From: Trypanosoma brucei
Taxonomy: Eukaryota
Assembly: GCA_000002445.1 (NCBI GenBank)
Contig: AE017150.2
Coordinates: 896,001-960,000, forward strand
Reading direction: 5' to 3'
Length of the DNA stretch: 64,000 bases
Shown here: piece after piece, positions 1,388 through 46,659 of the stretch
How positions within the stretch are numbered: the stretch's first letter is position 1
Layout: each line of letters opens with the position of its first letter
Position numbers and translations under genes: made by a program
The notes under the pieces: model-generated
Databases searched by the model: none
Seen by the model: the letters and a program-made list of their open reading frames with translations, nothing else
Told to the model about the DNA's origin: nothing

Positions 1388-2935
1388 CTACAATTTTAAC
1401 TTAGAAATGAGCGAAACACAATCTAGGGCTAACTCAACAGCCCTCACAGACCGCCGAAACTCTTCGCAATCCACCATGTGACCACTTGATACATAAGACC
1501 TACCGCTTCTGTACTGCCCAACAACACTATTTGCATATGACATCGAACTCATCAGCTTAGCGTGATCCTCAGCAATTTTCTCTACCTCCTGGACATACGT
1601 TGCCGGAGGCTCCACCAAAGAGGGGTTAAGACAAATAGCATGTGAAACCAGCACGGCGTGTATGGCGCCAGCAAAGTGCCGAAGGTACGCATTCTGACTA
1701 CCGTGACGGGGTAACCGACGGCAAATATACTCAGCTAAAAACAGACAACATATGCCAACGACCCCGCCGTTGGTATACATCGAACCAGAATACACCTCGT
1801 AGGCGTATTGAGCTGCCTTTTCACACACTTCTAGTAGAGCCAACTTGGTGATGGGATCACCAACGGGAATTACTATTGTCGCCACACTGTTTTTTCCATA
1901 TATCCAAAGCCCTCCCTCTCTTGACAGCGTTGCTCTGCGCACCATTCCGACCTTAAAGAAACCCCGCTTCGCTGATCCAGCGTATTCTGCCCACGCACAA
2001 AACTCGTGCTCGGTATGAAATGGTGTTGCTCCCGTTGCATGCTGGATAGCGTCACAGACACACAACGACAACCGCTCAAGAGAGACTATTCCCATGTCAA
2101 AAAGCAGTTCCTTCAGCTCACAACACATCAGGCGCTGGGATCCCAAGAAACTAACCCCTATACTGCCCACCAACGTTAGAAAGTCCTCCAACACAGCACC
2201 TCTCATCTCAAGTGAGCACGAAAACAGCAGTATACCACCTTCTCTACAGTCACCCTCCAACAGCATTCGTGATTCTATGGGCAAGTTAACAGATATAAAT
2301 ACCCCATCTTCCACATAAACCTCACTCAACTGTGTTTCCACAGATGACAATAAACACTGACTAACTTCTAGCATGTGGGCATCACTCGTTAAAAAGTATA
2401 TATTCTTTTTTTGGATCACAACATTAGAAATAAGTTGCGCAAGAAAGGCACAATCACCTTTTGCCAAAACACCGCAGCTGAGCAAAATCGACTCCACTCC
2501 ATGCAAGCAGCAATGACTAAATGTTGACTTACACCTTTCGGACCACAAGAAGCCGAAATAAGCTTCGTTGGCCCACTCCTTCAGCAACTTTACAGCTTGA
2601 TGCAAATACATACGTTTCCGGTAACAACAACTGACGCCGCCTACAACACCATCTACTGCACCGAAAAGCCTACATACTAAAAAACCAACCAGCAAACGCG
2701 ACGATTCTTCATAAAAATAAACTTCATTTAAACCTGAAGCCCGAGAAAGCAGCAAGGCACCAAAAAGCTGATTACAACTGTCCCCGCTTTGCATCATACT
2801 GTATTTGACAACATAGCTAAACCACGCAGCCTTAACACTAATACCAGAAGAATCAACAAACAAAAAACGTCTACGACGCCCATATACTTCAAAAAAACAT
2901 ATATTTAAAAAAGTTAACAACTCTTTCAAATTCAT
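1388..2935 (-). CDS. hypothetical protein (~515 aa)
   Basis: Long minus-strand ORF running 1388-3028. The most upstream 93 nt (2936-3028) lie inside the SIRE-like repeat, so the start is placed at the MNLKELL Met. No domain recognised by eye. Confidence 0.55.
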   Translation of the reverse strand: MNLKELLTFLNICFFEVYGRRRRFLFVDSSGISVKAAWFSYVVKYSMMQSGDSCNQLFGALLLSRASGLNEVYFYEESSRLLVGFLVCRLFGAVDGVVGGVSCCYRKRMYLHQAVKLLKEWANEAYFGFLWSERCKSTFSHCCLHGVESILLSCGVLAKGDCAFLAQLISNVVIQKKNIYFLTSDAHMLEVSQCLLSSVETQLSEVYVEDGVFISVNLPIESRMLLEGDCREGGILLFSCSLEMRGAVLEDFLTLVGSIGVSFLGSQRLMCCELKELLFDMGIVSLERLSLCVCDAIQHATGATPFHTEHEFCAWAEYAGSAKRGFFKVGMVRRATLSREGGLWIYGKNSVATIVIPVGDPITKLALLEVCEKAAQYAYEVYSGSMYTNGGVVGICCLFLAEYICRRLPRHGSQNAYLRHFAGAIHAVLVSHAICLNPSLVEPPATYVQEVEKIAEDHAKLMSSMSYANSVVGQYRSGRSYVSSGHMVDCEEFRRSVRAVELALDCVSLISKLKL

Positions 2936-2957
2936 ACTAATCACGCTAATACAAACC

Positions 2958-3512
2958 TCATAATCAGACGCAAATCCAACATAGAAAAAGAAAAGGGGAT
3001 AAATCCGGTTAATTCCTCCTTCCGCCACACCAGCAGCACAAACACAACAAAAATGACGAAAAATGATACCAAATCACAACTACAAAAGAAAAAAATAAAA
3101 GTTACGAAACCATCCCGACACCTTGAAACATTTGAACAACACAAATAGCTGCGGGGGCTACGACAACCACAACAACGCAGCAACCAGTGGACCCTCTGAG
3201 GGACGGATGCTCGCACCGCAAAGAAAACTTCGGAGAGCACCACACACACACACACACACCCGTCTGAACCGCTCCCGTCGCGAGAAACAGCCTCCGCCTC
3301 TTCTCAGGTCAAGCACCGCTTAATACCACCGAACCAACATTCCCCACTGCATTCCGCACCCACACCACGGAAACACCACCGTCCAGACACGCTACAACAG
3401 TAAATATGAGTAGGGCCCGTCAAAACACACGGCATCCGGTGGGAAATGCCAACACGTTGCCACAAATTGGCGCAATCATGCAAAAGTCACTACCGCAACA
3501 ACCGAGGGCACT
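2958..3512 (-). mobile_element. SIRE-like short interspersed element, apparently intact solo copy (inverted relative to the copy at 4634-5057 plus 9357-9492)
   Basis: Reverse complement of 3089-3512 matches 4634-5057 base-for-base apart from a few substitutions. Reverse complement of 2958-3088 matches 9357-9492. The contiguous copy therefore equals the two pieces that flank the 4.3-kb internal region of the neighbouring element. Confidence 0.55.
3241..3259. repeat. (CA)9 microsatellite inside the SIRE-like repeat (mirrored as (GT)n at 4888-4906)
   Basis: cacacacacacacacacac seen directly; the mirror copy gtgtgtgtgtgtgtgtgtg lies in the right-hand repeat. Confidence 0.9.
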
Positions 3513-3847
3513 CCAGTAGCCTCAGTTGTCATATCTTCGCTTTTCCTCCCGCTCCTGGAGACACCCTTGCTGTCCCACCAACCGCCTGAATCTACGCGCA
3601 CCTGCCCGCAGACGGCCCTTTTGTCACCGGTTTCCGCCCACACCTGTCACCGCAGCAACAGCCCGCCTATACTCCACGAGCCGGTGCCGGCAGAGGGAAG
3701 TGCCTTGCTTTTCGCATAATGCCACTGAACAAAGTCCCAAGCGAAAACAATGAGGGACAGCCGCACAAGACCGCCCAGTAGCGTAGTGACGGCAGCTCAG
3801 ATAGAGCGCTGCGGACCCAATGGATGCCATGACGGCTCTGAGGTTTA

Positions 3848-3861
3848 CCCCCCCCCCCCCC
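3848..3861 (+). repeat. C14 homopolymer (G14 on the minus strand)
   Basis: aggtttaccccccccccccccgtgg seen directly. Confidence 0.95.
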
Positions 3862-4404
3862 GTGGAGGCAAACTCAGCGAGACCGGGGTCAAAGGGCCCA
3901 CTTGCCTTGTTCTGCCGATAAAACATAGAAAGGCGACAGGTGACCCGCGGCATCTGGTTTCCTGTCAGCAAGGTGGTGTCGACCACTGCAGCCCCATCGT
4001 GCAGTGGGTGCCATTCCCCAGCGTAAGAAAAGCATCGGTTGGGTGTGTGCCCTATCTGGTCCCCGGATGAACCTTCCCAACATATCGCTAGTCACATTCT
4101 TTTGCGGCGACCCACCCTCAAGCCCTTGCTAGCGGCCAAAGCTCTTCAGACACGGGTGTACTGGTACTTGTTGAGGATTTCCCTCACCTTATTCGGGTTC
4201 CATCTTTGGTGCTTCAGTGCGTTAGAAGGTCCGCCATATGCTGGCTCGTTGGGTGCATTTTTCGATACGTAGAACACGGTCTCAACGTCTTATTGGCGAA
4301 GCTCCGGCAAATTGCTATGGGGGCCCAGTGACCGGGCAAAGGTCCTACGTTTGAGGAGTCGCGGCTGACGGGCGACTTTTGAGTACCACATTTCAAAGGA
4401 AAAT

Positions 4405-4414
4405 GGGGGGGGGG
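4405..4414 (+). repeat. G10 homopolymer
   Basis: aaaatggggggggggcggcc seen directly. Confidence 0.95.
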
Positions 4415-4633
4415 CGGCCAGTGATTCAATCGGTTCGTCCGGAACATTAAGTGGCCTTGGAGATGAAATCCTTTACTTGCCTCGGAAGCGACGCAAATCT
4501 CTCACTATAGTTGGGGAGAAATAGCCCTCGCCCCTCCGGCGTCCAAGCTTGCACGCGGAAGTACCCTAAGGGTGACGCTACCTAATCATAGAGGGACAAC
4601 GCATCACAAGAACTTCGAACTGCGGAAAGATAA

Positions 4634-5057
4634 GAGTGCCCTCGGTTGTTGCGGTAGTGACTTTTGCATGATTGCGCCAATTTGTGGCAACGTGTTGGCA
4701 TTTCCCACCGGATGCCGTGTGTTTTGACGGGCCCTACTCATATTTACTGTTGTAGCGTGTCTGGACGGTGGTGTTTCCGTGGTGTGGGTGCGGAATGCAG
4801 TGGGGAATGTTGGTTCGGTGGTATTAAGCGGTGCTTGACCTGAGAAGAGGCGGAGGCTGTTTCTCGCGACGGGAGCGGTTCAGACGGGTGTGTGTGTGTG
4901 TGTGTGGTGCTCTCCGAAGTTTTCTTTGCGGTGCGAGCATCCGTCCCTCAGAGGGTCCACTGGTTGCTGCGTTGTTGTGGTTGTCGTAGCCCCCGCAGCT
5001 ATTTGTGTTGTTCAAATGTTTCAAGGTGTCGGGATGGTTTCGTAACTTTTATTTTTG
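4634..5057 (+). repeat. SIRE-like 5' terminal piece of the composite element (right arm of the inverted repeat)
   Basis: Inverted match to 3089-3512. Confidence 0.7.
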
Positions 5058-5867
5058 TGAGGTTGAGAAAGGAATCGTCCATCCTTACCACTTTCCTTGT
5101 TATTCGTTCTTTCCTTTCTTATATATGCATAGAAAAACTATTACTGAGGAAAGTTTTTTAAAAAGGTAAGTAATCGCTGTAAGTTTTGAGAGATGGTAAC
5201 GACAACCCCTCCAACTATATTGGATGCCGAATGGAAAATAAGTTTGAAAGAAATAAGGACTTTTGTGAAGCAGGGCGGTCGGACCACATTTTCATTCGAC
5301 TATTGTCCCCCTTTTGGAAATACAGCGGTACACGTAGACGGTTTGGTGAGGCTTGAAAATGGAGAGCTTCGAGTGATTTTTGACTAGGCAGCTAAATTTC
5401 GTCGATTTACGGAGCTCGTTGGTTTCCTTCAATATGCCCTAAAACATTGAATTCTTGTGTATGTTCAAAGAAAATAGAGATATGTTTCGTAACGAATGTC
5501 TAGCACTAGAAGCAAATAAGTCTAATTTATACCAACAGTACGAAATGACAAGACCACAAATGAATGATGAGCACTGGAGAATGCAAAACCAGTCGATGGA
5601 ACTGAATAGGCAAGTTGAAAGGTTCATGCAAGAAAATTGTGCTTTGAGAGGGGAAATGGAACAGATGCTCTTCCATAACAATAGGTTAGTAGTTGTCATT
5701 GAATCGATAACACCTGAGTTACACCACTGGAAGATATTAGCAAATACGGACGCCACACATAAAACGGATCCAGTTGTCGAACAAGGGAGAGTAAAGAATG
5801 AATCAGATCAAAAGGAAAAAGGTAGAATAGAAATAAAGTTCCCTTTTGACTCATACAAATCACAGTT

Positions 5868-6440
5868 TTGTCAGAAATCAAGCGGTTAACATGTAAGGAA
5901 CCACAAGGTAGGAATCAGAGGCATTCAGCAGGTAAAAATAGCTTTGTGGGCAAGGGTTTTCCCCCTAAAGAAAACATACGGACGTTTAAAGGGGAGATCG
6001 AATACATGACGGAGACATCACCGGAACAGTTTTTTAACTGCGTACAAAGAATTGTTCCCATTACCACAAAAACCGGATTACGGGTCACAATGCGTCTGGG
6101 AGCAATTTGCGGCGTGGATAAGTGCAGTGGGAGTATAAGGATCTCAGAAGGTGGGATAACAGTCGGGAGGTCGATTCACACTTATCTTCGAGTCTTACAA
6201 ACAGCGAAAGCCCATCCGGGGGTGCGAGTGGAAGCGTTGGCAAAGGCAGTACATGACTCAAGGAGGGACGAGGATCCATACCATCAAGCATACCCAAAAG
6301 TTCAAAAACCGACTTCCCAAGTTAGCAGAATACGATGCTTCCGATGTGGGAAGTTGGAGCACTACAGTGCGTCATGCTTCGTTAAGGATGCCAAGGTTCC
6401 GTGGAAGCCAACAAGCGAATACCGGCCCCGGAAACAGTAA
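5868..6440 (+). pseudogene. gag-like ORF fragment with a CCHC zinc knuckle (retroelement ORF1 remnant)
   Basis: 190-aa ORF containing the CX2CX4HX4C knuckle CFRCGKLEHYSASC. Neighbouring frames carry further fragments (5455-5889, 6253-6708). Confidence 0.55.
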
Positions 6441-6870
6441 GCTTCGGGGCCGAGAAAATATTGGAATCCGTATCCATGGTTACGGGGCCAAGGACCCACA
6501 AGTGGGTAATAGCGAATGGAGAAATGCCACGGAAAACTTGCCGGGTAAAGGTCTGATGGTAGAGGAGGACACAGAGGACACAAAGGGAAGAGAGCCAGCA
6601 AGAGAAACGGCATCCCCAGTTTTGCGCCCTACGAAAACACCGGTAAACGAAGTTATCGTTATAAAACTGGCGACCCACGATCCGGTTATGGCGGCGTGGG
6701 CTTCATAATCGAATTGCATAGCAAGGGTCATGAGGACACAGTCAACTTGGGAGCAGCGGCGGTCGATTCTCAGAAGATTCTGCGAGTTTGCGGCAAAACA
6801 CAACGTGGAGCCAAGTGAGGGGAATGTTCCCATCTTCATTGTGAGTTTGTAACTGGACAAAAGCAGCGCC

Positions 6871-7382
6871 GTGAGGTATACAGGAACTCTTTTGTCGATG
6901 CTGGCAGCGGAAAAGGCACTAGCAAGAATGTTTTTGTTGGGTTTGCAGAGAAAAGTGGAGGAAACACCAATAAAGCAGGCCTGCCCCATGGAGATGTGGG
7001 AGCTGGACATGATAAGCGACACAACGGAACTGGAAAGGGAGCGAGTGGCCATGCGTCTGTCTTGGGTCACTGCCAGTCGTTGGGGAGAGATTGCTTCGCT
7101 GCAAAAGGAAAATTTTGTCGCTCATCCTCAGGACGAGGAGGCACTAATCGTCGACTGGGGGGCATCCCAAAGACATTCAAGTTAGATCCACGCAGAGCAG
7201 CGAGATATGTGGTCATCGCGGGCGAGGACGCCAAAAAGTTGAAGAAAGTCGTAAGGTTGATGGTGGATGAAGAAAAACTAACCACCATCAGCACAAGGGA
7301 CGTGGAAAACATTCTGAAACCTTACGCAATGACGGTACATTCTATAAAAAAAAAAGGGGGTCTCTACCTCATGCGACCGTAG
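6871..7382 (+). pseudogene. tyrosine-recombinase (DIRS/VIPER ORF2-like) fragments, frameshifted
   Basis: LSWVTASRWGEIASLQKENF resembles box I (TGLRxGELxxL). ...YAMTVHSIKKKGGLYLM resembles box II (HxLRH..G). The motifs are in two different frames. Confidence 0.45.
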
Positions 7383-8099
7383 CGGTGGTAGAAAACGACC
7401 TCGACTCACACATTCTGGCCCAGATGGGAAAACACGCGGACCCCATGGAATTTCGTCGGAGCACCACTAGGAATTTAGGGTCGTGGGTGGCAGTGCTAAA
7501 CAAGTAAATTTAACAGTGCTCATGCATAAACGGAGGGTGAGTGGGCCACGTTACTGTGGAAGGTTCAGAATCCAACGATAAAAATAATAGGACAGGACCT
7601 TTATTTCAGAGACACAACATTCTCCGACGCACCCATCAAACCAAGGTCGCCTCGGATACTGAGCAACAGGAGTCACCGTAACAACAGATGAATGTGGAGA
7701 CTTTATCGCTAAAATGGATCAAGTAACGACTGAATAGTCAATATTTACAGCTCTTCAATGATGTTTGGGAGACCATGCGCAGACCGGCCAGGAAAGAAGG
7801 TCGGGAATACGAGCCAAAATTGACGATTTCAGACCAGAATACTATCACCGTGGAAAGAGAGGGTACAATTCAGAAAGTGTCCAACAACCCTACCACGGGT
7901 TGGGCGGTGCCCTTCACGGTAGTTGAAGAGAAGCCAACGGGTTGTCGAGGGCGAATCATTACATGGCCAAAGTCTAAGAATGCACAGGACGATTATGAAG
8001 CTATTGTTCCTCTGGGACACGTGCCACGCTACCTGGATGCTGTCCATGATGAGGGTGCAGCGCTTTGTGATTTAAAAGCTTCGTTTTCTTAAAAGCGGG

Positions 8100-8335
8100 C
8101 TTGCTGATGGACACCCGATCAGGTTTCTTATGCCGGACGGCAGGTGGAAAGCTCGTGGAACTTGCCCGACTTCCTATGGGTTACAAGTGTGGCCCGGGAG
8201 TCTTACACACGGCCCCGTGTGTATTGGCCGGGGACTCTGCAGTAGTGAAAGCTGAATATGCAGCGCCTTCGTAGCTAAAAGTACATGTGTGGATTGATAA
8301 TATTCGTATTAGCAGTCCACGGGAAGTTGTAAACT
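8100..8335 (+). pseudogene. reverse-transcriptase fragment (motif B-like LPMGYKCGPG and motif C-like VWIDNI) with an in-frame stop
   Basis: Frame-0 translation ...VELARLPMGYKCGPGVLHTAPCVLAGDSAVV...(stop)...VWIDNIRISSPREV. The motif spacing of ~35 codons is typical of an RT. Confidence 0.5.
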
Positions 8336-9356
8336 GATGGAACAAGGTGATTAGAAGAAACATGTTACAGCGCGGCGCAACTTCATGGAAAAGCAAGTCC
8401 ATCACCGCACTATATGATTTCATTGGAGTCCACTTTGGTCATGGTTCAAAGATGGTGCCATTGAGCAAAAAAACGGTGCGGAAACTCAGGAGGCTATCCC
8501 ACTGAGAGGGTTACTGTTGACAGTTTGGAGAGCATAGTATCCCGAATGATGTATGCGGCAGGGGCACGGGGAGGTTCTCTGTTCCGACATTTTTTTTTCT
8601 TAAAGATGGTAAGACGGCGCTTGTCGGAGCTCAACAGGTGTGTCTTGGCGCAGAACGACATGGCACGGCTTTCCCTCCAGGCAATCCGCATGGGGCAGGA
8701 GTGACTAAGCGGGTTGATCGAAAAAGAACCCGTTAAGCCGTCAAGGTAATTACCGACTTCTGCAACATCGGTTACCGATGCTTCTATACACGGCTGGTGA
8801 GCTTCACTTTTTAAGGACAATGGGAAAGTATGGGCTTCAGGAGGCCAGCGGGCACAACCTCCACATTGTATCTCTCATACCAAGGCGAGAGCAGTGACAT
8901 TGGCATTGAGAGCTTTTCAGGGCAGCCTGCTTAATAATATTTACGTATGTGTGGATAATACTACAGTTATGCATGTCACGAAAAAAGGTAACACACACTC
9001 CGATGCTTCGGTTCAAGAAGTAAGTTTAATAGATCATGTTTATCTGGAGGAAGGCATCGAGGCTCTTTGGGACTATGTTGTTTCATTAGCGAATTTCGCT
9101 GATGGTATCTCACGGAGGAGGGCGGTTTTTCCATCGGACTTAGCGAAAGGGTGGAACTTGTGATAGGGAGCGCGGGAGGCGGGATGAGAACGCTTTCACC
9201 AATTCCTTATCGTAAGTGTTTTGTTTCTTTCATTGTCTTAATATTGGGAGTTTTACCTACATTGAAAAAGCTTACCGTGATACCCCAAAATTGGCCATTT
9301 AAATAATTATATCTTTATCATAATTCTCTTCTATATGTAGGAGTAGGTAAGGTGCA

Positions 9357-9492
9357 AACTATTCTTTTCTTTTGTAGTTGTGATTTGGTATCATTTTTCG
9401 TCACTTTTGTTGTGTTTGTGCCGCTGGTGTGGCGGAAGGAGGAATTAACCGGATTTATCCCCTTTTCTTTTTCTATGTTGGATTTGCGTCTG
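9357..9492 (+). repeat. SIRE-like 3' terminal piece of the composite element
   Basis: Inverted match to 2958-3088 (ttcttttgtagttgtgatttggtatcatttttcgtca...). Confidence 0.7.
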
Positions 9493-9748
9493 ATTATAAG
9501 ATTCATCCGTGCGTGTTGTATAATTATTGATTGTTTTATGTTTGTAATTGGTTATTTGTTGCTTGTTTCTTATATTGCTCTTTTATTTGCTTCGTTGATA
9601 TGCTCAAATATATTCTTTTACATGTTTGTAGTGTAGTGTAGTTGAAGGAAAGGGTCCTAGTTTGTACCTGAGTATTGTGTTACTCTTTTTTATATATGGG
9701 AAGGAATTGCCAATGCTTATATCTGCCTCCTTTGTGTCTTACCAGCGC

Positions 9749-10378
9749 ATGATCGTTGCAGAACATCGTGTTACGGCTACAATGAAAGGTGTTGTTGATG
9801 TTATGCTCGAGCAGCTTCCTCGTTATGACACTAAAGCCGTCTATCAGTATGATGAAAGCGTGTTTCATTTTCTTGTTGAAAATGAACTTGTGTACGGTTG
9901 TGTCACAGGTGTGGATCACACAAAGCGCGTGGTATTTGAATTTTTGTCACGTATCCGTGATTTCTTTAAAAAAGAGTTTGCTGGTAGCGATAGGCGATAT
10001 CCACGACCCTCGGCTATTTCTTTCAGTGCTTGCAGTAAATTCGGCGCAGTGCTTTCAGATAATATGCGGTCATTCAATGAAACTAATAGTACAGATAAAC
10101 TTGGTGAAATTAATAAACTTGTTGATGATACGAAGCATACAATGTTGGGGAACATAGACGTGCTAATTGATCGCGGGGAGCGAATTGAATTATTGTGTCA
10201 TAAGACGGAAGTGCTTAACACCGGATCCCGTGCTTTTCAGTCCAGTGCTAGGTCGTTAAAGTGGAAAGTGTGTATGGGAAAGATGCGGTTTGTTATTGGG
10301 ACGTTTTTACTTTTCCTTTTCTTTGCGACCATATCTTTCATTTTCATTTGCGGCACTAACCTCAAGTGCAAAAAGTAG
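9749..10378 (+). CDS. longin-domain R-SNARE (VAMP7-like vesicle-associated membrane protein)
   Basis: N-terminal longin-like region (MIVAEHRVTATMKGVV...LVYGCVTGVDHTKRVVFEFLSRIRDFF). R-SNARE motif (KLGEINKLVDDTKHTMLGNIDVLIDRGERIELLCHKTEVLNTGSRAFQSSARSLKWK). C-terminal TM segment (FVIGTFLLFLFFATISFIFI). Confidence 0.8.
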   Translation: MIVAEHRVTATMKGVVDVMLEQLPRYDTKAVYQYDESVFHFLVENELVYGCVTGVDHTKRVVFEFLSRIRDFFKKEFAGSDRRYPRPSAISFSACSKFGAVLSDNMRSFNETNSTDKLGEINKLVDDTKHTMLGNIDVLIDRGERIELLCHKTEVLNTGSRAFQSSARSLKWKVCMGKMRFVIGTFLLFLFFATISFIFICGTNLKCKK

Positions 10379-29430: not shown

Positions 29431-32400
29431 ATGAATGAAGAACCACCTCAGATGGGGAAGTTATTGCTGGAAGCAGAGATCCCAGAGGAACTGTTGAAGG
29501 ACAAAACACCACAGGAACAAAACATAATCATGCGCGGTCACCTAACGCAGCGCCGCTTCGAGCAGAACGAAACGCCTGTTGTTCGGGATGTGGTGCGGCA
29601 AAAGGTGAAGGAAGACGTACGACAGCTGGGGCTGAAAACATATCCTGCGCAACGACGAGCGCAGACGACTAACCAACTGAACGTCATGCGGGAGATGCAC
29701 CAGGCCACGAAATTCAGAAATCCTACGGCAGCCCCATTGCCAATGCGGTTACCGCCACTTCTAGGAAAAATGCTGCGGCGGCAAAACAGTACGGGTGCGA
29801 AATCTACGCTGCTCGCACAGGATGGCGGTGCAAGTGCGGTGAACCCCGACGCTGAGGTTGAGAAGGATGGAAAGAGGTTGGCCTCGGCACAAGGGCAAGG
29901 TGACAGAGTTAATCCCTCTGCGAGTGGACGAAAATACTTTTTGTTGGAAGATTTTGATAGCACCGATTTTGAGCTTCATACGCCGGAAGAGTGGGTTGCG
30001 CTCGGCGAAGCATGTGGGGGTACGCCGGCGCGGTCGCGCTACTTCATCAAAACAACGAATGGGACGGAGTGGCGTCCATGTCGTGTCGTGGCGTACAATG
30101 AGTCCAGCTGTTGCTACCGCATCGTGTGGGAGTGCGATGGTTGTAGCAAGTGGACCACCAGGCTGAACATTATATTTGATGATGAAAGCGAGTTGAAGTG
30201 GCTTGAGCGTGTACGGCAAGCTGAGGCATATCGAGATGAAACAGAAGCAGCGCTTCGGAGTCGCCTGTACATAGAACAGCTCGACAAGAGCATTCTGGCT
30301 CCAATGGATCAGGTGCAAATGGAGCGGATTCTCTCCCTCGTTGCCCGTCGGTTTCCAATCACAACGCTATCGCTTGTTGATTGTTGTACGCGCGAGGTGG
30401 AAGAACTCTACTATTACAGTCTCAAGCGAGCGCAACACTGGCGGGAGATGGTGAGTGACCCAGAGGAACGGAAGAGAGCACACTTACTGGGACTTCCACC
30501 TCCACCGCCAGGGATGGTGACCGAGACATATACTGAGTCGACGAAGGAGTTACGCGGCACAATTGACACACCATCACCCAATTTTGAGGCCGCACGACAG
30601 TTCGTGGCGGAAAATCTCTTCCAGACACATTTGCTACTGAATACGACCATTCATTCCATTCACTCACAGTGGGGCGAGTACAAGTCTCAGTTGTTCTGCT
30701 TAACACAGTACGGCAAGGGTGACACACCGCTGCAGCTCCGATTGTTCAGTGACATGCAGTCGCACCGCGGTATTGCCACTGCCGAGAAGTTGCGGAATGA
30801 GTGGAGTATGAACGTACGGTACACAATCCTGAACAAGCTGGACCTCCATTTCAAGTTTTATGAAGATGATATAAATCGATACAACGGCAGTCGCATGAAC
30901 CGCTTTGTGAACCTTGTCAACATCATGATGACATCTCAGCTACGTGAGTTACTGGTCGCCTCGCTACAGGAATATGCCGACTTTATCTATCAGTACCGTA
31001 CAGTACCGCTTGACGGCGATGAGGAGATGGAAGAGCTTCAGGAAGACATTGAAGAGGCTCAACACTGGGTGAGACGTCAAAACGAGTGGAAAGCGAAACT
31101 GCGCGCTGACGCTGAAGGAGAACAAGAGCGGTTGCGCAGTGGTGGCGCATCGGCTGGCCCCACAGGCAGTTCCCGCCGTGTCCCGCCTAAGGCCGAAGAG
31201 GAAGATGCGGATGGGGAGGTACCCTTTGTTTGGCGGCTGGGCCAATTCCGGAACAGTATACCGTACACAAGGAGAGTAGTCGAAATGACGATGAACACAC
31301 GCGGCTTACAGCCACTGTTTATACTGAACCTCGTGGAGGAGGACGGCCGCGTTGTATTCTTCCCCACACTTGAGGAAGTCAAACTTCGTGTGCGCGGTGT
31401 CTTTGAGAGCTGTTTCGAACATGCGGATAGAATACAAGGTATGGGTGATCAGCTTTTCCCCTTGTTGCAGCTCCCGCAGGTGATACTCCAACCTCTCGGC
31501 CCGCAGGAACCAGTTGTGTGTGAGGCACGTCGCTTGATTGACAAGGCTCTTGAGGACAACGTCGAGGCCCCTATGCAGCTTCTGCAAATGTACCAAACTT
31601 TTGAGTACATACTACGACTTGATCCTAACGACCTTGTTGAGGAGGCAAACGAGCGTCAGTTGTCCTTGCACGACTTCGACTGGACGTTCGAGCGACTCAC
31701 TCGTGACAAGGAGCGCATTGTGCACCGTACGCATAATCATGTCAAGTACGAAATGTTTTTTATTGACTGTACAGGGATTAAAACAACACTAATCACAAAA
31801 GCAACCAATGTTCAGGACGCGTTGATGGAAGCACTAGCGCAGCGTCTAAGGGGAAATTGTACTTCTATTATAAATGAATATAATATGATGAGTAATCGCA
31901 TGGCGGTGGAGCCTCGAACACCGGAAGAGTTGCAGGAGCTACGTGACTTCCTTGATGCTATTCCGGGCCGTCAGGAACAAATAAACGTGGTGTTCGACAC
32001 CGTCACCTCTGGCTTTGACCTTCTGTTCAAATACAGATATGACTTCTCCCCTGAGGCTTGCTACGACTACCACACAGCATATGAATGGCCGCGGCTCTTA
32101 CAACAGGGGTTGGAGGATGGGAATTTCCGCAGCAGAGAGTACCGCACACTCCTTATGCAGGTTCTCCGCGACAACTGCGAGGTGCTCACAGAAAACATTG
32201 TCCGTTTGGCCAACACTGTGGAGGACTTCACCCATTTTGGCGACGATGCACGCGCCGATCAGTACTACGAGCATGCTAAAGCATTGGAGCAGCGCATCAG
32301 GGAACACCAGGCCCAAATGCAACTGTACAACAGCCATGAGACGCTATTTGCCCTTCCGCAATCGAAGTGGCCGCAACTGAAGGCTATTAAAGCGCAACTG

Positions 32401-35400
32401 GAACCGTATTACGTGCTGTGGGAGGTTGTAAGTCACTTTCAAAACGAGAGTGAGCGCTGGCTGAATACGCGCCTCCACGCGCTACAACCGTTCGAAGCTG
32501 ATCGACAACTAACGGACTGGGCGAAAAAGGTAGCAGTTGTGTCTAAAAAGATTAAGGAGGCGGAACCACTAGCTGTGGCAAAGCGAATCCGTGAAAATAT
32601 AGCCATCTTCAAGCCGAACATTTCTCTGCTGTATGCGCTTCGGAGTAACTTACAGGCGACGCACTGGAAAGCCATTTTCCAAGTGTGCGGTGTGCCGAGG
32701 GAAAAGCAAAATTTAGGTGCCGGAGGCTCGGAGTCAAACGATTCTCGGCCATTCAGTGACTTCATCAAACTAGGCATGCTGGACTTCATGCCTCAGATAG
32801 AAAGCATCGCAGCCGTAGCGCAGAAGTCGTTCGAGTTGGAAAGTGAGCTCATGGCGATGGAGACGGAATGGAAGAAGCTCCTCTTTGAGATTGAGCCGTA
32901 CCAAGATACATACAAGCTCAAGGCAAATGATATCATGCAGTTGACTTTGGATGAGCACATACTAAAGACGCAATCTATGCTGGGGAAGCCGATTGTGCGC
33001 CAAGCTCCCGCGCTTCAGGCGCGCGTACTACAGTGGGAGAAACTGCTAGACAAGGTTCAATGTACAATGGATGAATGGTTCAAGTGCCAGGGCACGTGGG
33101 CTTACCTTGAGCCTATTTTTTCGTCTGCGGATATTTCCCGCAGCTTGCCAAAGGAGAAACAGCTTTTTGTTGTCATCGATGAGTCGTGGCACAAAATTAT
33201 GGAACAGGCGCGCACCACACCGCAGATACTAACTAGATGCCAAGATGAATTGCTGCTGCGGACGCTAGTTGAAAATAACAACAACCTTGACATCATTCTT
33301 AAGAAGCTGCAACAATTTCTCGAAACGAAGCGAATGGCCTTTCCGAGGTTCTACTTCATTTCTAATGAGGAGTTGCTTCAAATATTGTCGGACAGCAAGG
33401 ATCCATACCTCGTGCAACCGTATCTCAGCAAGTGTTTTGAAGGCATTAAGCGTATTCATTTCGCGGATGCGCATGATATCCTTGCAATGGAATCATCTGA
33501 AGGGGAAGTCGTGCGTCTAGTAAAGACAATTAACCCGAATGATTTCCAAAATAGAGTAGAGTTATGGTTGCAGGGTCTGGAGACTACTATGAAGGAAACC
33601 ATTTTAGACCAACTGAAGCAGGCGACGGCTGATTATGTACAACGCAAAAAGCGGGCAGAATTTATTCGTGCATGGCCAGGCCAGGTGGTTATTGCCATCT
33701 GTTCGCTTTATTGGACTATGGAGGCAACAGAGGCGATGAGTAAGGAGGGAACTGTGGGTCTGACAAGTTACCACGAGAAGTGTGTTGGACAGCTCGACGA
33801 ACTTATTGTACTCGTGCGAGATCGCAACCTCGCAGTGGTGGAACGGTGCACGTTGGAAGCGCTGGTCGTAGTGGAAGTGCACGCGAAGGATATCATAGGG
33901 CAGCTTTCAGAGAAAGGTGTGGATTCACCGAAAAGCTTTGACTGGCTGGCTCAGCTACGGTACTACTGGGAGGAGGGCCACCTTCAAGTGCATCAAATTA
34001 ATGCCTCGCTACGCTACGGCTACGAGTACTTGGGTAACACCGGCAGGCTTGTCATCACACCGTTGACGGACCGTTGCTATCGGACTCTCATTGGTGCACT
34101 GCACTTAAACTACGGTGGCGCACCGGAAGGCCCTGCTGGTACCGGAAAGACAGAAACAACAAAGGATCTTGCGAAAGCTCTGGGTAAGTACTGTGTGGTG
34201 TATAACTGCTCAGATCAGATCACAGCGAAGGATATGGCAAAGCTCTTCAAAGGCCTATCGCAGTCAGGATCGTGGGGGTGCTTTGATGAATTCAACCGTA
34301 TTGAAATTCAGGTCCTTTCTGTGATCGCGCAGCAGGTAGCGGTAATTCAGGAAGCTATTATCCAGAAGCGCTCGGAATTTATATTCGACGGCGCGCAGAT
34401 TCGCTTGGATCCTGGCTGTGCTATCTTTATCACCATGAATCCTGGGTACGCTGGACGTGCTGAGCTTCCAGATAACCTCAAGGCGCTTTTTCGACCGGTG
34501 GCAATGATGGTGCCCAACTATGCTATGATTGGTGAGATTCAGCTGTATTCATACGGTTTCCTCTATGGTAAGGAGTTGGCGGAAAAGATCGTCGCCACTT
34601 ACCGTCTGTGCTCGGAACAGCTATCATCTCAGGACCACTATGACTACGGTATGCGTGCCGTGAAGGCTGTGTTGACTGCGGCTGGTCGCTTGAAGAGGGC
34701 GTACCCTGACGAAGACGAAATGGTACTGATGCTGCGTTCCATCCAAGATGTTAACCTTCCCAAGTTCCTGACGCAGGATGTGGAACTTTTTAAGGGAATC
34801 ATTTCCGATTTGTTCCCCGGTGTGAACTTACCAGAACCCGACTATGTGGACATGCACAATGCCCTTGTGAAGGTGTGTACAACACGTAATTTGCAGCTCA
34901 CGCCCTACTTTGAGCTGAAGGTGAGGCAGACGTATGAAATGATTGTTGTGCGTCACGGAATGATGTTGGTTGGGTATTCTTTTGGTGGAAAAACGAAGGT
35001 ATTGCACTGTCTGTCAGAGTCTCTTGGCCTCATGGAAGCTGTTGGGAAGGAACGACGCACACGTCTCTTCACAATGAATCCAAAATCAGTAACGATGCCA
35101 CAGTTGTACGGCAAGGTGGAGCAGTCGGGTGAATGGACGGACGGTATTCTACCCTACAGATTCAGGCTCGCTGCGCAGGACACTTCCACCGACCGTAAGT
35201 GGCTTGTCCTTGACGGGCCTGTAGATGCAGTGTGGATTGAGAACATGAATACTGTCCTCGACGATAATAAAAAACTCTGCCTTCAGAATGGTGATATCAT
35301 CGCAATGTCCAAAGAGATGAATCTTATATTTGAGGTACAAGATCTCGCGCACGCTTCACCCGCCACCGTCTCCCGTTGTGGTATGGTATATGTGGAGCCG

Positions 35401-38400
35401 GACTCCCTTGGTTGGCGTTGCCTAATCGACTCCTACTTCAACACCATTCCGGAGCAGCTGCGAAAGGAAGAAGCTGCCGTAGCAGCTCTGCGCAAACTTG
35501 TGGACGTTTTTCTGCAACCTATGCTGGATGTGGCGCGGAGGGAGGTAAAACCGGTGATTCCCCAGGGTGCCCTTGTGGCTGTGTCGGGCTTTATCAAGCT
35601 CTTCTCGACGCTCTTGTCCAGCCTCCCCTCTGCTGAAGAGACCGCGGCGGCGGCGGCCGTAGACCCCTCCACGCTAGAGCGCAACCTTCTAATGAAGATT
35701 GAGGGCTGGTTTCTTTTCTCGCTTGTTTGGTCCGTCGGGGGATGCCTCTTTACAAAGGATCGCGCTATATTCAGCAATGCACTGCACACTCTAATTTCCT
35801 CCGCAGCTTCAGAGGGCTTGTACAAATTTGTCCTTCCCCTTATGGAAAACAAGCGCTCCTTCTTCGACTTCCGTCTAGAAACGGAGGACGGCGTTCGTTT
35901 CGCCCAATGGATCGACTACGTGCCGAGTTTGGTTATTGAAGAGGAGACCGAATACCAAGACGTCATTGTACCAACAAGCGCACAGTTGAGGTTCTCGTAC
36001 CTGACGCAACTTATGATCAATTCCATGCATCCAGTTCTCCTAGTTGGTGACACAGGAACTGGTAAGACAATTATGATGAAGGCTTTGCTAAAGTCGCTTC
36101 CTGAGGACACATACGCGCTCAATATGATCCAGTTTTCCGCGCAAACATCCGCTGGTAACCTCCAGCGGCGCATCGATGGTAGTTTAGAAAAGCGCCGCAA
36201 GGGGGTATATGGCCCGCCCATCAACAAAAGAATGATTATCTTTGTTGACGATACCAACCTGCCCCAAGTGGAGGAATATGGCGCCCAACCACCAATTGAA
36301 CTGCTCCGTCAGTTTCTTGACCATGGTGCCTGGTACAACCACTCGAAGGATGGCATTGAGTACCGTCGGTTGGTGGATGTTTTGTTAGTCTGTGCGATGG
36401 GTCCTTCAGGTGGAGGACGGAGTGAAGTTACCCAGCGGTTTGCCAGGCATTTCAACAGTATCGCCGTTCCAGCCTTTGACGAGCCAACCCTACAGAAGAT
36501 ATTCACAACCCTGATAGACTGGATTTTGGGGAAGGGTTTCCCTCCGGCGCTTCGAGGGATGGGTTCGGCACTTGTCAGTGCGACAGTGGAGCTTTACGAA
36601 ACGTTAGTGGACAAGTTGAAGCCCTCACCGGAGAAATCACACTACACTTTCAACTTACGTGACGTGAGCAAGGTGTTTCAAGGTATCGACATGGCTAATC
36701 CGGCTAAAATCACAGATGAGTTGAAACTTGGGCAGTTGTGGTTGCACGAAGTCTCCCGCGCCTTTGCCGATCGCTTCACGGAAGATAAGGACACGGCATG
36801 GTTCTTCGGCGAGGTATGCAAGTTATCGATGAGTCACCTGAAGTTATCGTTAGATAGTGTCAAAACTGCGGAGATTCCAACTCTGTTCTCCACGTTTATG
36901 AACGAAGAGGGTGTTTATGAGGAGATCACTGATGCGGCGGAGGCCCGAAGGGTGCTGGAGGGTAAAGTAGAGTCGTACAATGCTTTGTCGGGCTCTGGAG
37001 AGCTGGATCTCGTTATATTCAATTATGTGCTGATACACGTAGCGCGCATCTGCCGGGTTCTTCACCAGCCTGGTGGCCATCTTCTTCTGATCGGTGTCGG
37101 TGGAAGCGGGCGGCGGAGCTGCGCTAGGTTCGCCGCTTTTCTGCAAGAATGTGACTACATGACCATTACACCCACGAAGGACTACGATCATTCCAACTTC
37201 TTAGATGACATCCGTACCCTGTTGTTGCGCACGGGTAGAGATGGTTACACCACTGTCTTTGTTATGGCGGACACACAGATCTCATCAGAAAATTTCTTGG
37301 AAGATATTTGTAGTCTTCTGAACACCAGCGAGGTTCCTGGTATATGGGACGCGAAGCAGGATAAGGAAGCATATGAGGATGCCGTGGCTGCGCTCCGTGA
37401 GGTTGGAAAGGAGCTCGGTCGTCCTGATAGTGCCGAGGCTTTACAAGCCCTATTCACGGAGCGCTGTAGAAAGTACATGCACATTGCCCTCTGTTTCTCG
37501 CCCATTGGCAGTGCGCTACGTGATAGACTTCGTAAGTTTCCCTCCTTAGTGAACTGCACAACCATTGATTGGTTCAGTGATTGGCCAGAAGACGGTCTGC
37601 GCTCCGTCGCGGCAAGGTTCCTTTCAAAGGTGGAACTCACGGAACGGGAGCGCGCGGCGGCGGAGGAGATGTTCGTGCAGTTTCAGCAGCAAGTGCGTGA
37701 CCTTGGAAGAGTGTACTTTGATGAAATGAGGCAGTATACCTATGTGACGCCAACTTCCTACTTGGATCTGCTCTCAACTTTTGCCCGCATGCTGTGCGAA
37801 AAGCGGACAGAGCTCACGGCCATGATGCACCGTTACGCCAATGGTTTGACGCAGTTGAAGAAGACGGAGGACCAGGTTGAGGTCATGCAGCAGGAGCTGG
37901 CTCTAATGCGACCGGAGCTTGCGAAGAAGCAGCTGGAGACGGATAATCTAATCAAAGAAGTGGAACTGGAGAGTAAACTCGCGGAGGAGCAGCGCGCCAT
38001 CGTTGCCGTGGATGAAGCGGCAGCGAATGAACAGGCAGCAGCTGCAAAGGAGATCAAAGATGCTTCGCAGCAGAAGGTGGATGAGGCGCAGCCGCTCGTG
38101 GAGCAGGCGCAGCGTGCGGTTCTCGACCTAGATCCAAAGGCTCTGCAGGAGATCAAGGCACTTAAAACGCCACCTCAGGGTGTGAAGTATGTAATTGAAG
38201 TTCTGTGTACGTTGCTGGGTGGGCAGTATAAACCGAAGGCAGTGCGTGACGCCCTCACGGGAAGCGTAACAGTTCCATACTGGGAACATGCCAAAGTTAC
38301 ACTGCTTACGGCAGAGTTCAAGAGCACGCTGCTGAATGCGTATCCTGTGATTGTCGATACCGCACCTAATGAGCAAATAGAGGAAGTGAAGAAGAAGATG

Positions 38401-42171: not shown

Positions 42172-43190
42172 ATGTAGACTTACGCGATGTACCAAATGCA
42201 AAACTTCTTAGGAAAGGAGAAGAGCTGTGTAGAAATATATATATTTAGTTGTGATAGAAAAAGATGAAGAGTAGATCAGACTGCTAGTTTATTGTGTACC
42301 TCCGTGTTGTTGGTGTTTGTCTGATGTGGTTTCGTACTCCCCCCCCCCGTTTCCATCACTTTGAATGTTTATATTTGCATTTGAAACCCCTATAGTCGAT
42401 ACCCCGCCTCGCACGCACTGCAGTTTGCAATGTGAAGATGGAATGGACGATTGTATCAAACCCCTTTTTCTATTACTAATGGGTTTTGACATGTACACTA
42501 CCACAGCACGTGTGTTCTTGAACGATAGCATGTCACCCCACCTTCCTCCCTCCGCCTCTTCCCTGCTTGATGCTTCTTGTTTCACTTCATAGTAGTAGTA
42601 GTTTCTTACCTCTATGCTAGGTTGTGTTGTGCGCCTACACGCCTCTTGCCGCTGTGAAGCTCACCATACCACCAGCGGGTGTGAGACGGCAGTCGCCGCT
42701 AACCGGCCATTTGTCGCAATGTGGAGGGAAAGAAGTGGTTGTGGCAGCAGACTAGCGGGGGAGCGCATGCGGAATCAGTGGGAATGAACACTTTCCAATG
42801 CCGTTGCAACTATTTTACTGCTTCTTCCTGTATGCATATATATATATATAATTTTCTTCCTTCACTGTAGACGGATGTCTTTCATTGTCACGGTACTTTA
42901 AGTGACCAAACCAGACTATCTTACTGTTCCATGTTTCTCTGCTTCTGACATAGTACGGTAAATACTATAGTAAACGCTTTTTAGAGATACATAAAGGAGG
43001 GGGATAATAAAAGTGGCAAACGCAGCATAGATAGTATTTGGTTTATCGTTGGCAGCCGTTGAAGGGTGGGTGAGTTTTGAAGTGCCGTTACGTACACCGA
43101 CCGCGTAGCCTAGTACCTGGTTCATTTAAAGGAGGAAAAGGAGAACGGAAGTATTATTCATCCCATCTCCCCTCTCGTCAGCTCATTTCG

Positions 43191-46560: not shown

Positions 46561-46616
46561 TTCTATTGTCACTGTTGCATTTCCCCTTTACTGACACGCT
46601 CTTCCCTCTTTCCCGC
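46561..46616 (+). promoter_or_regulatory. polypyrimidine tract upstream of each array ORF, a candidate trans-splicing signal repeated in every unit
   Basis: ttccccttta(c)tgacacgctcttccctctttcccgc lies 45-60 nt upstream of each ATG (46660, 48594, 50522, 52441, 54366, 56306, 58246, 60186). Confidence 0.45.
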
Positions 46617-46659
46617 ATATGTGTGTATTTGATAAACTCATAAGGAAGCAACACTGACA

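What the first reader, a model, noticed from the sequence alone, without database searches (positions are those of the whole stretch)
2958..5057. Divergent strand-switch region bracketed by ~0.5-kb inverted SIRE-like repeats (foldback-like architecture)
The minus-strand copy (2958-3512) and the plus-strand copy (4634-5057) are in inverted orientation around a unique 1121-bp core. Each carries the same CA/GT microsatellite. The whole 2.1-kb structure sits exactly where transcription polarity flips: minus genes to the left, plus genes to the right. Such a long perfect inverted repeat could form a cruciform or hairpin, could mediate inversion of the core, or could act as a symmetric boundary element. 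SIRE-like elements in T. cruzi are known to contribute RNA-processing signals, so two copies facing outward from a transcription start region is notable.
Basis: seen in the sequence. Interest (0 to 1): 0.6.

Follow-up and report, generated by a model that had tools for sequence, protein, structure and literature searches.

The report
Retroelement-end inverted repeat at a trypanosome promoter
The perfect 423-base inverted repeat is real, but it lies in Trypanosoma brucei, not T. cruzi: it is the already catalogued repeat "IR1" on chromosome 2, made from the end-repeats of a dead VIPER retroelement and its short SIRE-like relative, and the promoter-bearing DNA between the arms is flipped in one other strain's assembly.

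Summary
The arms are 3091-3513 and 4634-5056, 423 nt, 100% complementary, 1120 nt apart.

The window is T. brucei TREU927 chromosome 2, 896001-960000, not T. cruzi. The repeat is the published Tb927_02_IR1, a weak source of Dicer-2-dependent siRNA (Tschudi 2012). It sits in the published divergent Pol II start region between Tb927.2.5080 and Tb927.2.5120 (Kolev 2010).

New here:
- **Right arm.** It is the 5' terminal repeat (A) of a degenerate VIPER retroelement: A, then gag/recombinase/RT-RNaseH remnants, then a 144-nt B segment (4634-9503).
- **Left copy.** It is A joined directly to B (2954-3513, minus strand). This is the arrangement that defines SIRE in T. cruzi.
- **Arm evolution.** The arms evolve in concert. 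Two substitutions that separate TREU927 from two other strains are present in both arms.
- **Core orientation.** The 1.12-kb core is precisely inverted in the T. b. equiperdum IVM-t1 hybrid PacBio/MiSeq assembly.
- **Splice site.** B' holds a mapped trans-splice acceptor of Tb927.2.5080.

Most likely this is a neutral retroelement relic, homogenised and occasionally flipped by recombination between the arms. A cruciform is unlikely. A selected promoter or boundary role is untested. Interest is moderate, because the parts are known and only the links between them and the inversion are new.

The parts
3091..3513 (-). Left arm (A'): inverted copy of the VIPER 5' terminal repeat. It is the 5' part of the solo SIRE-like unit.
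   Evidence: 423 nt, 100% complementary to 4634-5056. Present in DAL972 and IVM-t1.
4634..5056 (+). Right arm (A): 5' terminal repeat of the degenerate TbVIPER copy.
   Evidence: It is followed directly by the gag-like, recombinase-like and RT/RNaseH remnants.
3514..4633 (.). Unique GC-rich core (57-60% GC) between the arms. It holds C14 at 3848-3861 and G10 at 4405-4414, so there is a G-run on the sense strand of each diverging gene cluster. It is the probable remnant of the original bidirectional start region. It is inverted in IVM-t1.
   Evidence: No other copy in the window. Composition, homopolymer runs. No Pfam, tRNA or Rfam hit. Inversion with exact junctions.
2954..3097 (-). B': inverted copy of the VIPER 3' segment, joined directly to A' with a TATT overlap. 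It carries a polypyrimidine tract and the AG used as a splice acceptor of Tb927.2.5080 (first mRNA base at 2956).
   Evidence: 97% match to 9360-9503. Kolev 2010 Table S1 gives the transcript 5' end as 898956, which is window 2956 and is preceded by AG.
9360..9503 (+). B: 3' terminal segment of the TbVIPER copy.
   Evidence: It lies about 150 nt after the last RNase H similarity, which ends at 9208.
5057..9359 (+). Degenerate VIPER interior, broken by frameshifts and stops. Gag-like remnants run 5443-6437 with CFRCGKLEHYSASC at about 6333-6377. Recombinase-like remnants run about 6709-7379. RT/RNase H runs about 7595-9208.
   Evidence: Frame map. zf-CCHC at E = 0.0014, below Pfam's cut-off. 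The stitched RT/RH matches T. grayi TcC31.12 at E = 5e-126 and 47% identity, plus T. theileri RT/RNaseH proteins. Listed as the 'degenerated' VIPER copy Tb927_02_v5.1_894682_911167 in Ribeiro 2019.
3241..3258 (-). (CA)9 microsatellite in the left arm. Its partner (GT)9 lies at 4888-4905.
   Evidence: Repeat number, left/right, is 9/9 in TREU927, 28/20 in DAL972 and 14/15 in IVM-t1.
1388..2935 (-). Tb927.2.5080, first gene of the minus-strand cluster.
9713..10378 (+). Tb927.2.5120 (longin/synaptobrevin SNARE), first gene of the plus-strand cluster. Its major splice acceptor is at 9632, downstream of B.
   Evidence: Pfam. Kolev 2010 Tables S12 and S14. AG confirmed before 9632.

Best explanation
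The structure is a retroelement relic in a divergent RNA polymerase II start region of T. brucei chromosome 2.

Layout:
- On the right, in the sense orientation of the plus-strand cluster, lies a dead VIPER-type tyrosine-recombinase retroelement (4634-9503): repeat A, then gag/recombinase/RT-RNaseH remnants, then segment B.
- On the left, in the sense orientation of the minus-strand cluster, lies a 560-nt solo unit (2954-3513). It is A joined directly to B, the same relation SIRE has to VIPER in T. cruzi.
- The two A repeats face each other across 1.12 kb of unique GC-rich DNA. This core is probably the remains of the original short bidirectional start region.

Shown:
- The anatomy.
- The identity of the locus.
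- The VIPER homology.
- The concerted evolution of the arms.

Inferred:
- Recombination between the arms keeps them identical through gene conversion and occasionally flips the core through crossover. One assembly shows the flipped state.

From the literature:
- Rare transcripts that run through both arms would fold into a 423-bp hairpin. This would explain the few DCL2-dependent AGO1-bound siRNAs reported for this repeat.
- B' supplies a splice acceptor to the first minus-strand gene.

The repeat itself is most likely neutral. The flip preserves the 'C-run on the left, G-run on the right' polarity of the core, so it should be tolerated (inference).
For: Locus identity:
- T. brucei.
- Published ORF and splice-site coordinates fit with an offset of 896000, and the mapped sites fall right after AG.
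- Tschudi 2012 lists Tb927_02_IR1 at 898600-902200, 422 bp, 100% identical. It gave 403 small-RNA reads, falling to 9% in the dcl2 knockout.
- Kolev 2010 Table S14 classes the flanking units as divergent.

Retroelement:
- Frame map in gag, recombinase, RT/RH order.
- RT/RH hits at E = 5e-126.
- Ribeiro 2019 lists this copy and describes VIPER as A1-ORFs-B1-A2-B2 with SIRE = A2+B2.
- Left unit = A+B with the interior exactly missing.

Concerted evolution:
- At arm positions 58 and 290, TREU927 has C/C and G/G. DAL972 and IVM-t1 have G/G and T/T. Both arms agree in every genome.
- The core differs by 1.16% between TREU927 and DAL972.

Inversion:
- In IVM-t1 the flanks align plus/plus, but the core aligns only in reverse (98.5%) with exact junctions.
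- That assembly used PacBio reads averaging 8.5 kb. It was scaffolded on TREU927, so guidance from the reference would not produce the opposite orientation.

Hairpin:
- All 423 arm pairs form in a folded read-through RNA.
Against: - No second TbVIPER copy could be fetched, so A and B are not shown to bound other copies.
- The canonical A2-B2 after B1 is absent.
- The inversion rests on one hybrid assembly with few PacBio reads. Pilon polishing with multi-mapping reads could also have homogenised the IVM-t1 arms.
- TREU927 and DAL972 share one orientation, and DAL972 may have been guided by TREU927.
- Start sites, chromatin marks and small RNAs were not mapped here at base resolution. 'The core is the promoter' is therefore inference from composition, supported by the strand-specific enrichment of long G and T stretches on the coding strand of start regions reported by Wedel 2017.
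- The siRNA yield is very low (403 reads).
Confidence: 0.7

Rival explanations
1. The arms are selected, symmetric promoter modules. Each outward-facing A repeat would be a GT-rich directional Pol II promoter or H2A.Z-positioning element co-opted from the retroelement's own 5' repeat. Perfect identity would then reflect selection as well as conversion.
For: - On the sense strand the arms are 0.68-0.71 (left) and 0.61-0.68 (right) G+T, against 0.517 +/- 0.049 (maximum 0.675) in the gene cluster.
- GT-rich sequence on the coding strand drives directional transcription and H2A.Z deposition in T. brucei (Wedel 2017).
- The locus is a mapped divergent start region.
- The 5' repeat of a retroelement is where its own promoter would be expected (inference).
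Against: - Identity is fully explained by conversion between close inverted repeats.
- The (GT)n length varies freely: 9/9, 28/20 and 14/15.
- T. theileri has only a 1.2-kb divergent region upstream of the orthologous gene, with no VIPER RT/RH there, so the start region probably predates the element.
- There are no expression data.
Confidence: 0.15
2. The A-B unit is not part of VIPER. An ordinary 560-nt intergenic segment was duplicated in inverted orientation, and a VIPER lacking terminal repeats later inserted into the right copy at TATT, which would be a 4-nt target duplication.
For: - The A and B homologies overlap by TATT at the junction.
- No A2-B2 follows B.
- No other copies could be examined.
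Against: - VIPER and TATE are reported not to make target-site duplications (PMC12278014).
- The same '5' end + 3' end' relation defines SIRE and VIPER in T. cruzi.
- A 4-nt overlap in T-rich sequence is weak evidence.
Confidence: 0.12
3. The repeat is a dedicated hairpin-RNA gene. It would be kept to make siRNAs that silence VIPER-family transcripts, like the endo-siRNA hairpin loci of flies.
For: - AGO1-bound, DCL2-dependent small RNAs come from IR1.
- siRNAs rise at inverted repeats when H3.V is lost.
- The read-through RNA folds into a perfect 423-bp stem.
- The arms are retroelement sequence.
Against: - IR1 gave the fewest reads of the seven repeats: 403, against up to 372,045.
- If transcription starts in the core, as the divergent layout suggests, it runs outward, so most transcripts would contain one arm only (inference).
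- All T. brucei VIPER copies examined are degenerate, so there is little left to silence.
Confidence: 0.1
4. The inverted duplication is an assembly artefact.
For: Perfect identity and a palindromic layout can come from chimeric reads.
Against: - It is present in three assemblies made with different technologies. These show strain-specific SNPs and different microsatellite lengths in the two arms.
- There is a 1.1-kb unique spacer.
- It was reported independently by Tschudi 2012.
Confidence: 0.01

Closest known systems
VIPER and SIRE of Trypanosoma cruzi (VIPER-like superfamily of tyrosine-recombinase retrotransposons, order DIRS)
   Same: - The interior has gag (CCHC), recombinase and RT/RNaseH in the VIPER order, with strong RT/RH homology.
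- A short unit is made of the element's 5' end joined to its 3' end.
- The short unit sits next to a gene and donates a splice acceptor.
- The copy lies in a strand-switch region, where T. cruzi VIPER/SIRE relics also accumulate (PMC1868937).
   Different: - The host is T. brucei.
- The unit is 560 nt (A about 420, B 144). In T. cruzi, SIRE comprises A2 (173 nt), an exclusive region of about 30 bp and B2 (219 nt).
- No A2-B2 follows B1.
- The solo unit is inverted and head-to-head with the full copy.
- Sequence similarity to SIRE was not tested.
- In the papers read here, SIRE is described only for T. cruzi.
Long inverted repeats of T. brucei that yield siRNAs (Tschudi et al. 2012, IR1-IR7)
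   Same: It is one of them (IR1): same chromosome, coordinates, length and 100% identity. Those authors also noted the near-identity of all seven pairs.
   Different: That paper's text never mentions VIPER or strand-switch regions, and concerted evolution and core orientation were not found in the passages read. IR1 was not among the repeats they verified by PCR.
Flip-flop inversion between inverted repeats (plastid IR isomers, yeast 2-micron plasmid, human Y palindromes). This comparison is from my own knowledge.
   Same: Close, near-identical inverted repeats are homogenised by conversion, and the unique segment between them is found in both orientations.
   Different: Only one assembly shows the alternative orientation here. 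No dedicated recombinase is implied, because the VIPER recombinase is degenerate. The frequency is unknown.
Divergent Pol II start regions of T. brucei with GT-rich or G-run coding strands (Siegel 2009 from my own knowledge; Kolev 2010; Wedel 2017)
   Same: Divergent first genes, a mapped start region, G-runs and GT-rich sequence on each sense strand.
   Different: Here the GT-rich flanks are two copies of one retroelement repeat, so the symmetry is exact rather than only compositional.

Membership tests
VIPER-like retrotransposon | RT/RNase H homologous to VIPER RT/RH | tested here: met
   The stitched 429 aa from 7727-9160 matches T. grayi TcC31.12 at E = 5e-126 and 47% identity over the full length, and several T. 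theileri RT/RNaseH proteins. Hits lie only at 6996-9208 on the plus strand. The copy is listed by Ribeiro 2019.
VIPER-like retrotransposon | Gag-like ORF with a CX2CX4HX4C box, upstream of the recombinase and RT/RH | tested here: met
   CFRCGKLEHYSASC lies in 5868-6440. Pfam zf-CCHC gives E = 0.0014 and 19.1 bits, below the 20.8 cut-off. The order of the remnants is shown.
VIPER-like retrotransposon | Tyrosine recombinase ORF | tested here: inconclusive
   No Pfam hit reaches threshold for the stitched 6709-7379 sequence. The only support is a 28-aa match to a T. theileri locus and motifs seen by eye.
VIPER-like retrotransposon | Split direct repeats A1-ORFs-B1-A2-B2 | tested here: not met
   A1 and B1 are present, but no A2-B2 follows 9503. 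The only other A-B lies upstream and is inverted.
SIRE | Unit made of the VIPER 5' end plus the VIPER 3' end (A2+B2) | tested here: met
   2954-3513 equals A (4634-5056) joined to B (9360-9503) with a TATT overlap.
SIRE | Sequence similarity to the T. cruzi SIRE consensus | not testable with these tools
   No SIRE consensus is held. The one T. cruzi VIPER locus fetched (L003) has no terminal repeats and was not readable by scripts.
SIRE | Element of T. cruzi with high copy number, about 428 nt long | tested here: not met
   The host is T. brucei. The unit is 560 nt, and there is one unit in 64 kb. The genome-wide count could not be tested.
SIRE | Provides a trans-splice acceptor to the adjacent gene | tested here: met
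   The published transcript 5' end 898956 equals window 2956. It is preceded by AG and a polypyrimidine tract inside B'.
T. brucei siRNA-producing long inverted repeats | Near-identical inverted repeat of 400 nt or more at the published coordinates | tested here: met
   The arms correspond to chromosome 2 positions 899091-899513 and 900634-901056, inside 898600-902200. Length is 423 against the published 422 nt, at 100% identity.
T. brucei siRNA-producing long inverted repeats | AGO1-bound, Dicer-dependent small RNAs | not testable with these tools
   Literature only: 403 reads, 52% remaining in dcl1-/- and 9% in dcl2-/-.
Divergent Pol II start region | First genes diverge, 5'-triphosphate RNA is enriched, and the sense strands are G- and T-rich | tested here: met
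   Gene orientation. Kolev 2010 Table S14. G-runs and GT content. Chromatin marks were not tested.
DIRS1-type element (inverted terminal repeats plus internal complementary region) | Inverted terminal repeats enclosing the ORFs | tested here: not met
   The 423-nt arms enclose non-coding DNA and the ORFs lie outside them. Only the short B'/B pair encloses the whole 6.55 kb.
Foldback element | Long terminal inverted repeats built of tandem sub-repeats and forming the element's ends | tested here: not met
   The arms have no sub-repeats other than (GT)9. The arms continue into B' on one side and into the VIPER interior on the other.

The most novel reading that the evidence does not exclude
The promoter-bearing core of a trypanosome divergent transcription start region is a naturally invertible segment. 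Recombination between the retroelement-derived arms would flip it repeatedly, so that both orientations segregate within T. brucei. A larger 6.4-kb flip through the B'/B pair may also occur. This would be a natural experiment on whether Pol II promoter direction in trypanosomes is encoded in sequence.
Probability: 0.4. Interest if true: 0.6.

Novelty: new member of a known kind. Interest (0 to 1): 0.42.

Why it matters
It joins three separate published records of one locus: an siRNA-producing inverted repeat, a degenerate VIPER copy, and a divergent Pol II start region.

- It gives that unexplained 'curiosity' repeat an origin, namely retroelement terminal repeats.
- It suggests that T. brucei has a counterpart of SIRE, which the papers read here describe only for T. 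cruzi.
- It offers conversion between the arms as an alternative to the selective pressure Tschudi et al. suggested for the perfect identity.

If the flipped core in IVM-t1 is real, strains differ in the orientation of a promoter region. That would allow a direct test of promoter directionality in an organism where Pol II promoters are still poorly defined.

Tried and rejected
- **RNA genes.** The tRNA scan and Rfam found nothing in the window, so no RNA gene explains the core.
- **Pfam.** Single ORFs of the element and the core gave only a weak CCHC hit.
- **T. cruzi reading.** Rejected.
- **Chromosome 1 and centromere ideas.** Both were dropped. The locus is on chromosome 2, whose centromeric repeats lie at Tb927.2.1470-1560.
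- **Exact look-ups of TREU927 proteins.** These failed, so the window's identity rests on coordinate matches.
- **T. cruzi VIPER locus L003.** It has no terminal repeats and was unreadable by scripts, so no SIRE comparison was made.
- **T. theileri and T. grayi orthologous loci.** They show only that the Tb927.2.5080 orthologue is again a first gene, behind a 1.2-kb divergent region in T. theileri. The T. grayi contig ends 281 nt upstream of its orthologue.
- **T. equiperdum OVI contigs.** One begins about at the inner end of the left arm, estimated from gene positions. The other starts inside the VIPER RT/RH region and has deletions relative to TREU927, one of them within B. Neither shows the orientation of the core.
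- **Logan short-read contigs.** They join the VIPER interior to Tb927.2.5080 through B in 5 of 5 cases. The TREU927 arrangement and its 6.4-kb mirror image have the same 31-mer content, so these contigs cannot decide between them.
- **Other T. brucei VIPER copies.** None could be fetched.
- **Literature on an inversion here.** None found.
Full report
**1. The observation**

The region holds a perfect inverted repeat. Arms 3091-3513 and 4634-5056 are 423 nt, 100% complementary, and 1120 nt apart. Both arms contain the same dinucleotide microsatellite: (CA)9 at 3241-3258 and (GT)9 at 4888-4905.

Its outer 144 nt (2954-3097) do not pair with anything next to the right arm. They pair, inverted and at 97%, with 9360-9503.

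So the left side is one contiguous 560-nt unit, which I call A'+B'. On the right, A (4634-5056) and B (9360-9503) are separated by 4303 nt.

**2. Where this is**

The 515-aa protein at 1388-2935 (minus strand) is 99% identical to a T. brucei gambiense protein. Its 90% cluster contains the TREU927 protein of the same length.

Kolev et al. 2010 give Tb927.2.5080 as 898935-897388. That is the window ORF with an offset of exactly 896000. Three published splice-site coordinates fall, after that shift, immediately after an AG in the window.

The window is therefore Tb927 chromosome 2, 896001-960000. The arms are at 899091-899513 and 900634-901056.

Three published records cover this locus:
- Tschudi et al. 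2012 list 'Tb927_02_IR1' at 898600-902200. It is 422 bp and 100% identical. It gave 403 AGO1-bound small-RNA reads, falling to 52% in dcl1-/- and to 9% in dcl2-/-.
- Kolev's Table S14 classes Tb927.2.5080 to 3340 (minus) and Tb927.2.5120 to 5360 (plus) as divergent Pol II units.
- Ribeiro et al. 2019 list Tb927_02_v5.1_894682_911167 as a degenerate VIPER copy.

The text of the Tschudi paper never mentions VIPER or strand-switch regions.

**3. What the repeats are**

The 4.3 kb between A and B carries broken reading frames in this order:
- a gag-like region with CFRCGKLEHYSASC;
- a recombinase-like region;
- RT/RNase H.

A stitched RT/RH translation matches T. grayi TcC31.12 at E = 5e-126 and 47% identity over its whole length. 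It also matches several T. theileri reverse transcriptase/RNase H proteins, and proteins mislabelled 'TOR kinase'. These hits map only to 6996-9208 on the plus strand.

VIPER elements have split direct repeats arranged A1-ORFs-B1-A2-B2, and T. cruzi SIRE is the A2+B2 part. Here the right element is A-interior-B. The left unit is A joined to B with only a TATT overlap, and the interior is exactly missing.

This is the SIRE-to-VIPER relation, in another species and with other lengths (A about 420 nt, B 144 nt). The expected A2-B2 after B is absent.

The simplest history is inference:
- Two insertions of the family went head-to-head into an older short divergent region, each in the sense direction of its gene cluster.
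- The left insertion is, or was reduced to, the solo form.
- The right one lost A2-B2, for example by B1 x B2 recombination.

I could not obtain a second T. brucei VIPER copy to confirm that A and B bound the family. That is the main gap.

**4. Independent assemblies: real, co-evolving, and flipped once**

| Assembly | Technology | Relation to window | (GT)n left/right | Core orientation |
|---|---|---|---|---|
| TREU927 (window) | not established here | reference | 9/9 | reference |
| DAL972 | not established here | colinear, 97.9% identity | 28/20 | same as TREU927 |
| IVM-t1 | MiSeq + PacBio hybrid | flanks colinear | 14/15 | inverted |

- **DAL972.** Its arms differ from each other only in (GT)n length, 28 against 20. 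The apparent extra mismatch near the outer end is the ancestral base just beyond the A/B junction.
- **Concerted evolution.** At arm positions 58 and 290, TREU927 has C/C and G/G. DAL972 and IVM-t1 have G/G and T/T. Both arms carry the same state in every genome. Two parallel identical changes are not credible, so the arms exchange sequence.
- **Divergence between TREU927 and DAL972.** The core differs by 1.16% and the arms by 0.5-0.7%.
- **B copies.** They behave more independently. Two old differences are shared by both subspecies, and three are private to TREU927.
- **IVM-t1.** The flanks align plus/plus, but the core aligns only in reverse (window 3514-4633 to L006rc 13258-12134, 98.5%). 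The junctions are exact: the inner end of the left arm is followed by the reverse complement of the right junction.
- **Reliability of IVM-t1.** The assembly combined MiSeq 2x300 reads with PacBio reads averaging 8.5 kb, and was then ordered on TREU927. Guidance from the reference cannot create the opposite orientation. However, few PacBio reads are reported, so I put the chance that the flip is real at about 60-70%.

**5. What it probably does**

- **Hairpin RNA.** A transcript crossing both arms folds into a perfect 423-bp stem, which fits the DCL2-dependent siRNAs of IR1. If transcription starts in the core, as the divergent layout suggests, it runs outward and few transcripts would contain both arms (inference). 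This fits IR1 having the lowest read count of the seven repeats.
- **Core composition.** The core has C14 at 3848-3861 and G10 at 4405-4414, so there is a G-run on each sense strand. On their sense strands the arms are 0.68-0.71 (left) and 0.61-0.68 (right) G+T, against 0.517 +/- 0.049 in the cluster. GT-rich coding-strand sequence is known to drive directional initiation and H2A.Z deposition (Wedel 2017).
- **Effect of a flip.** Reverse-complementing the core keeps the 'C-run left, G-run right' polarity. A flip should therefore be tolerated (inference).
- **Splice signals.** B' contains a polypyrimidine tract and the AG before a mapped 5' end of Tb927.2.5080 (window 2956). On the other side, the SNARE gene uses an acceptor at 9632, downstream of B.
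- **Cruciform.** A cruciform in duplex DNA is unlikely with a 1.1-kb spacer (established knowledge, not tested here).
- **Overall reading.** I read the repeat as a neutral relic maintained by recombination, with by-products: siRNAs, a donated splice site and GT-rich flanks. A selected promoter-module or hairpin-gene role is possible but unsupported.

**6. A lead that stays open**

All five Logan short-read contigs carrying the Tb927.2.5080 ORF run from the VIPER interior through B into that gene. This is the adjacency expected if the whole 6.4 kb between B' and B were inverted.

B is identical over 138 nt in gambiense-type strains, which is longer than the assembler's 31-mer. The two arrangements therefore have the same k-mer graph. 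These contigs may simply be graph paths left after tip clipping. They cannot decide the question.

**7. Verdict**

The locus is already in the literature as IR1, as a VIPER relic and as a divergent start region. The following were not found in the papers searched:
- the identification of the IR1 arms as VIPER end-repeats;
- a SIRE-type solo unit in T. brucei;
- the concerted evolution of the arms;
- the flipped core in IVM-t1.

Interest is moderate.

Noticed in passing
window 46393-61300: Tandem array of eight units of about 1.92-1.94 kb, 96-100% alike. Each encodes a 362-369-aa protein with the IGP-family C-type lectin domain (DUF5075, E = 1e-81). It ends the plus-strand cluster, whose last annotated gene is Tb927.2.5360.
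   Followed up: partly
window 5201-9000: Divergence inside the VIPER interior is patchy and lineage-private. TREU927-only substitutions reach 22 per 400 nt at 8001-8800, and an IVM-t1-only cluster has 15 per 400 nt at 7601-8000. The flanks differ by only about 0.5%. This suggests ectopic gene conversion from other VIPER copies, or mixing of copies during assembly.
   Followed up: partly
L008, L010, L011 (Logan contigs from ERR7929156, ERR7929163, ERR7929164), compared with window 6961-9503 and 3097-1340: All five short-read contigs that carry the Tb927.2.5080 ORF join the VIPER 3' interior to that gene through B. This is either a de Bruijn graph path through the 138-nt exact repeat or a 6.4-kb inversion isomer.
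   Followed up: partly
L002 (T. equiperdum OVI contig CZPT02000724.1), compared with window 8715-9466: Relative to TREU927 this contig lacks window 9365-9465, which is most of the right B segment, and about 8945-9168. It starts inside the VIPER RT/RH region. This is either a real deletion or a short-read assembly fault.
   Followed up: no
window 3241-3258 and 4888-4905: The arm microsatellite is polymorphic between strains and between arms. (GT)n left/right is 9/9 in TREU927, 28/20 in DAL972 and 14/15 in IVM-t1.
   Followed up: yes
window 2696-2956: Kolev 2010 lists Tb927.2.5080 among genes with a mis-annotated start codon. A splice acceptor at 898837 (window 2837, after AG) lies inside the annotated ORF, and site dispersion is high at 154. 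In DAL972 a SNP at window 2944 creates an ATG three codons upstream, giving 518 aa.
   Followed up: partly
window 2297 (L006): IVM-t1 has a 1-nt deletion in the Tb927.2.5080 coding sequence, so the gene is annotated as a 292-aa fragment. This could be a residual long-read error or a real frameshift.
   Followed up: no
L004 3160-3243 (T. theileri NBCO01000023.1): A 28-aa match (46%, E = 6e-6) to the recombinase-like region lies about 7 kb upstream of the T. theileri orthologue of Tb927.2.5080. In T. theileri that gene is also the first of its cluster, behind a 1.2-kb divergent region, and no SNARE gene lies on the other side.
   Followed up: no
window 29431-42171 and 43077-45299: A 4246-aa ORF that was not characterised, and a 740-aa trans-sialidase-like protein (BNR_3 and TS_C domains) just upstream of the IGP array.
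   Followed up: no
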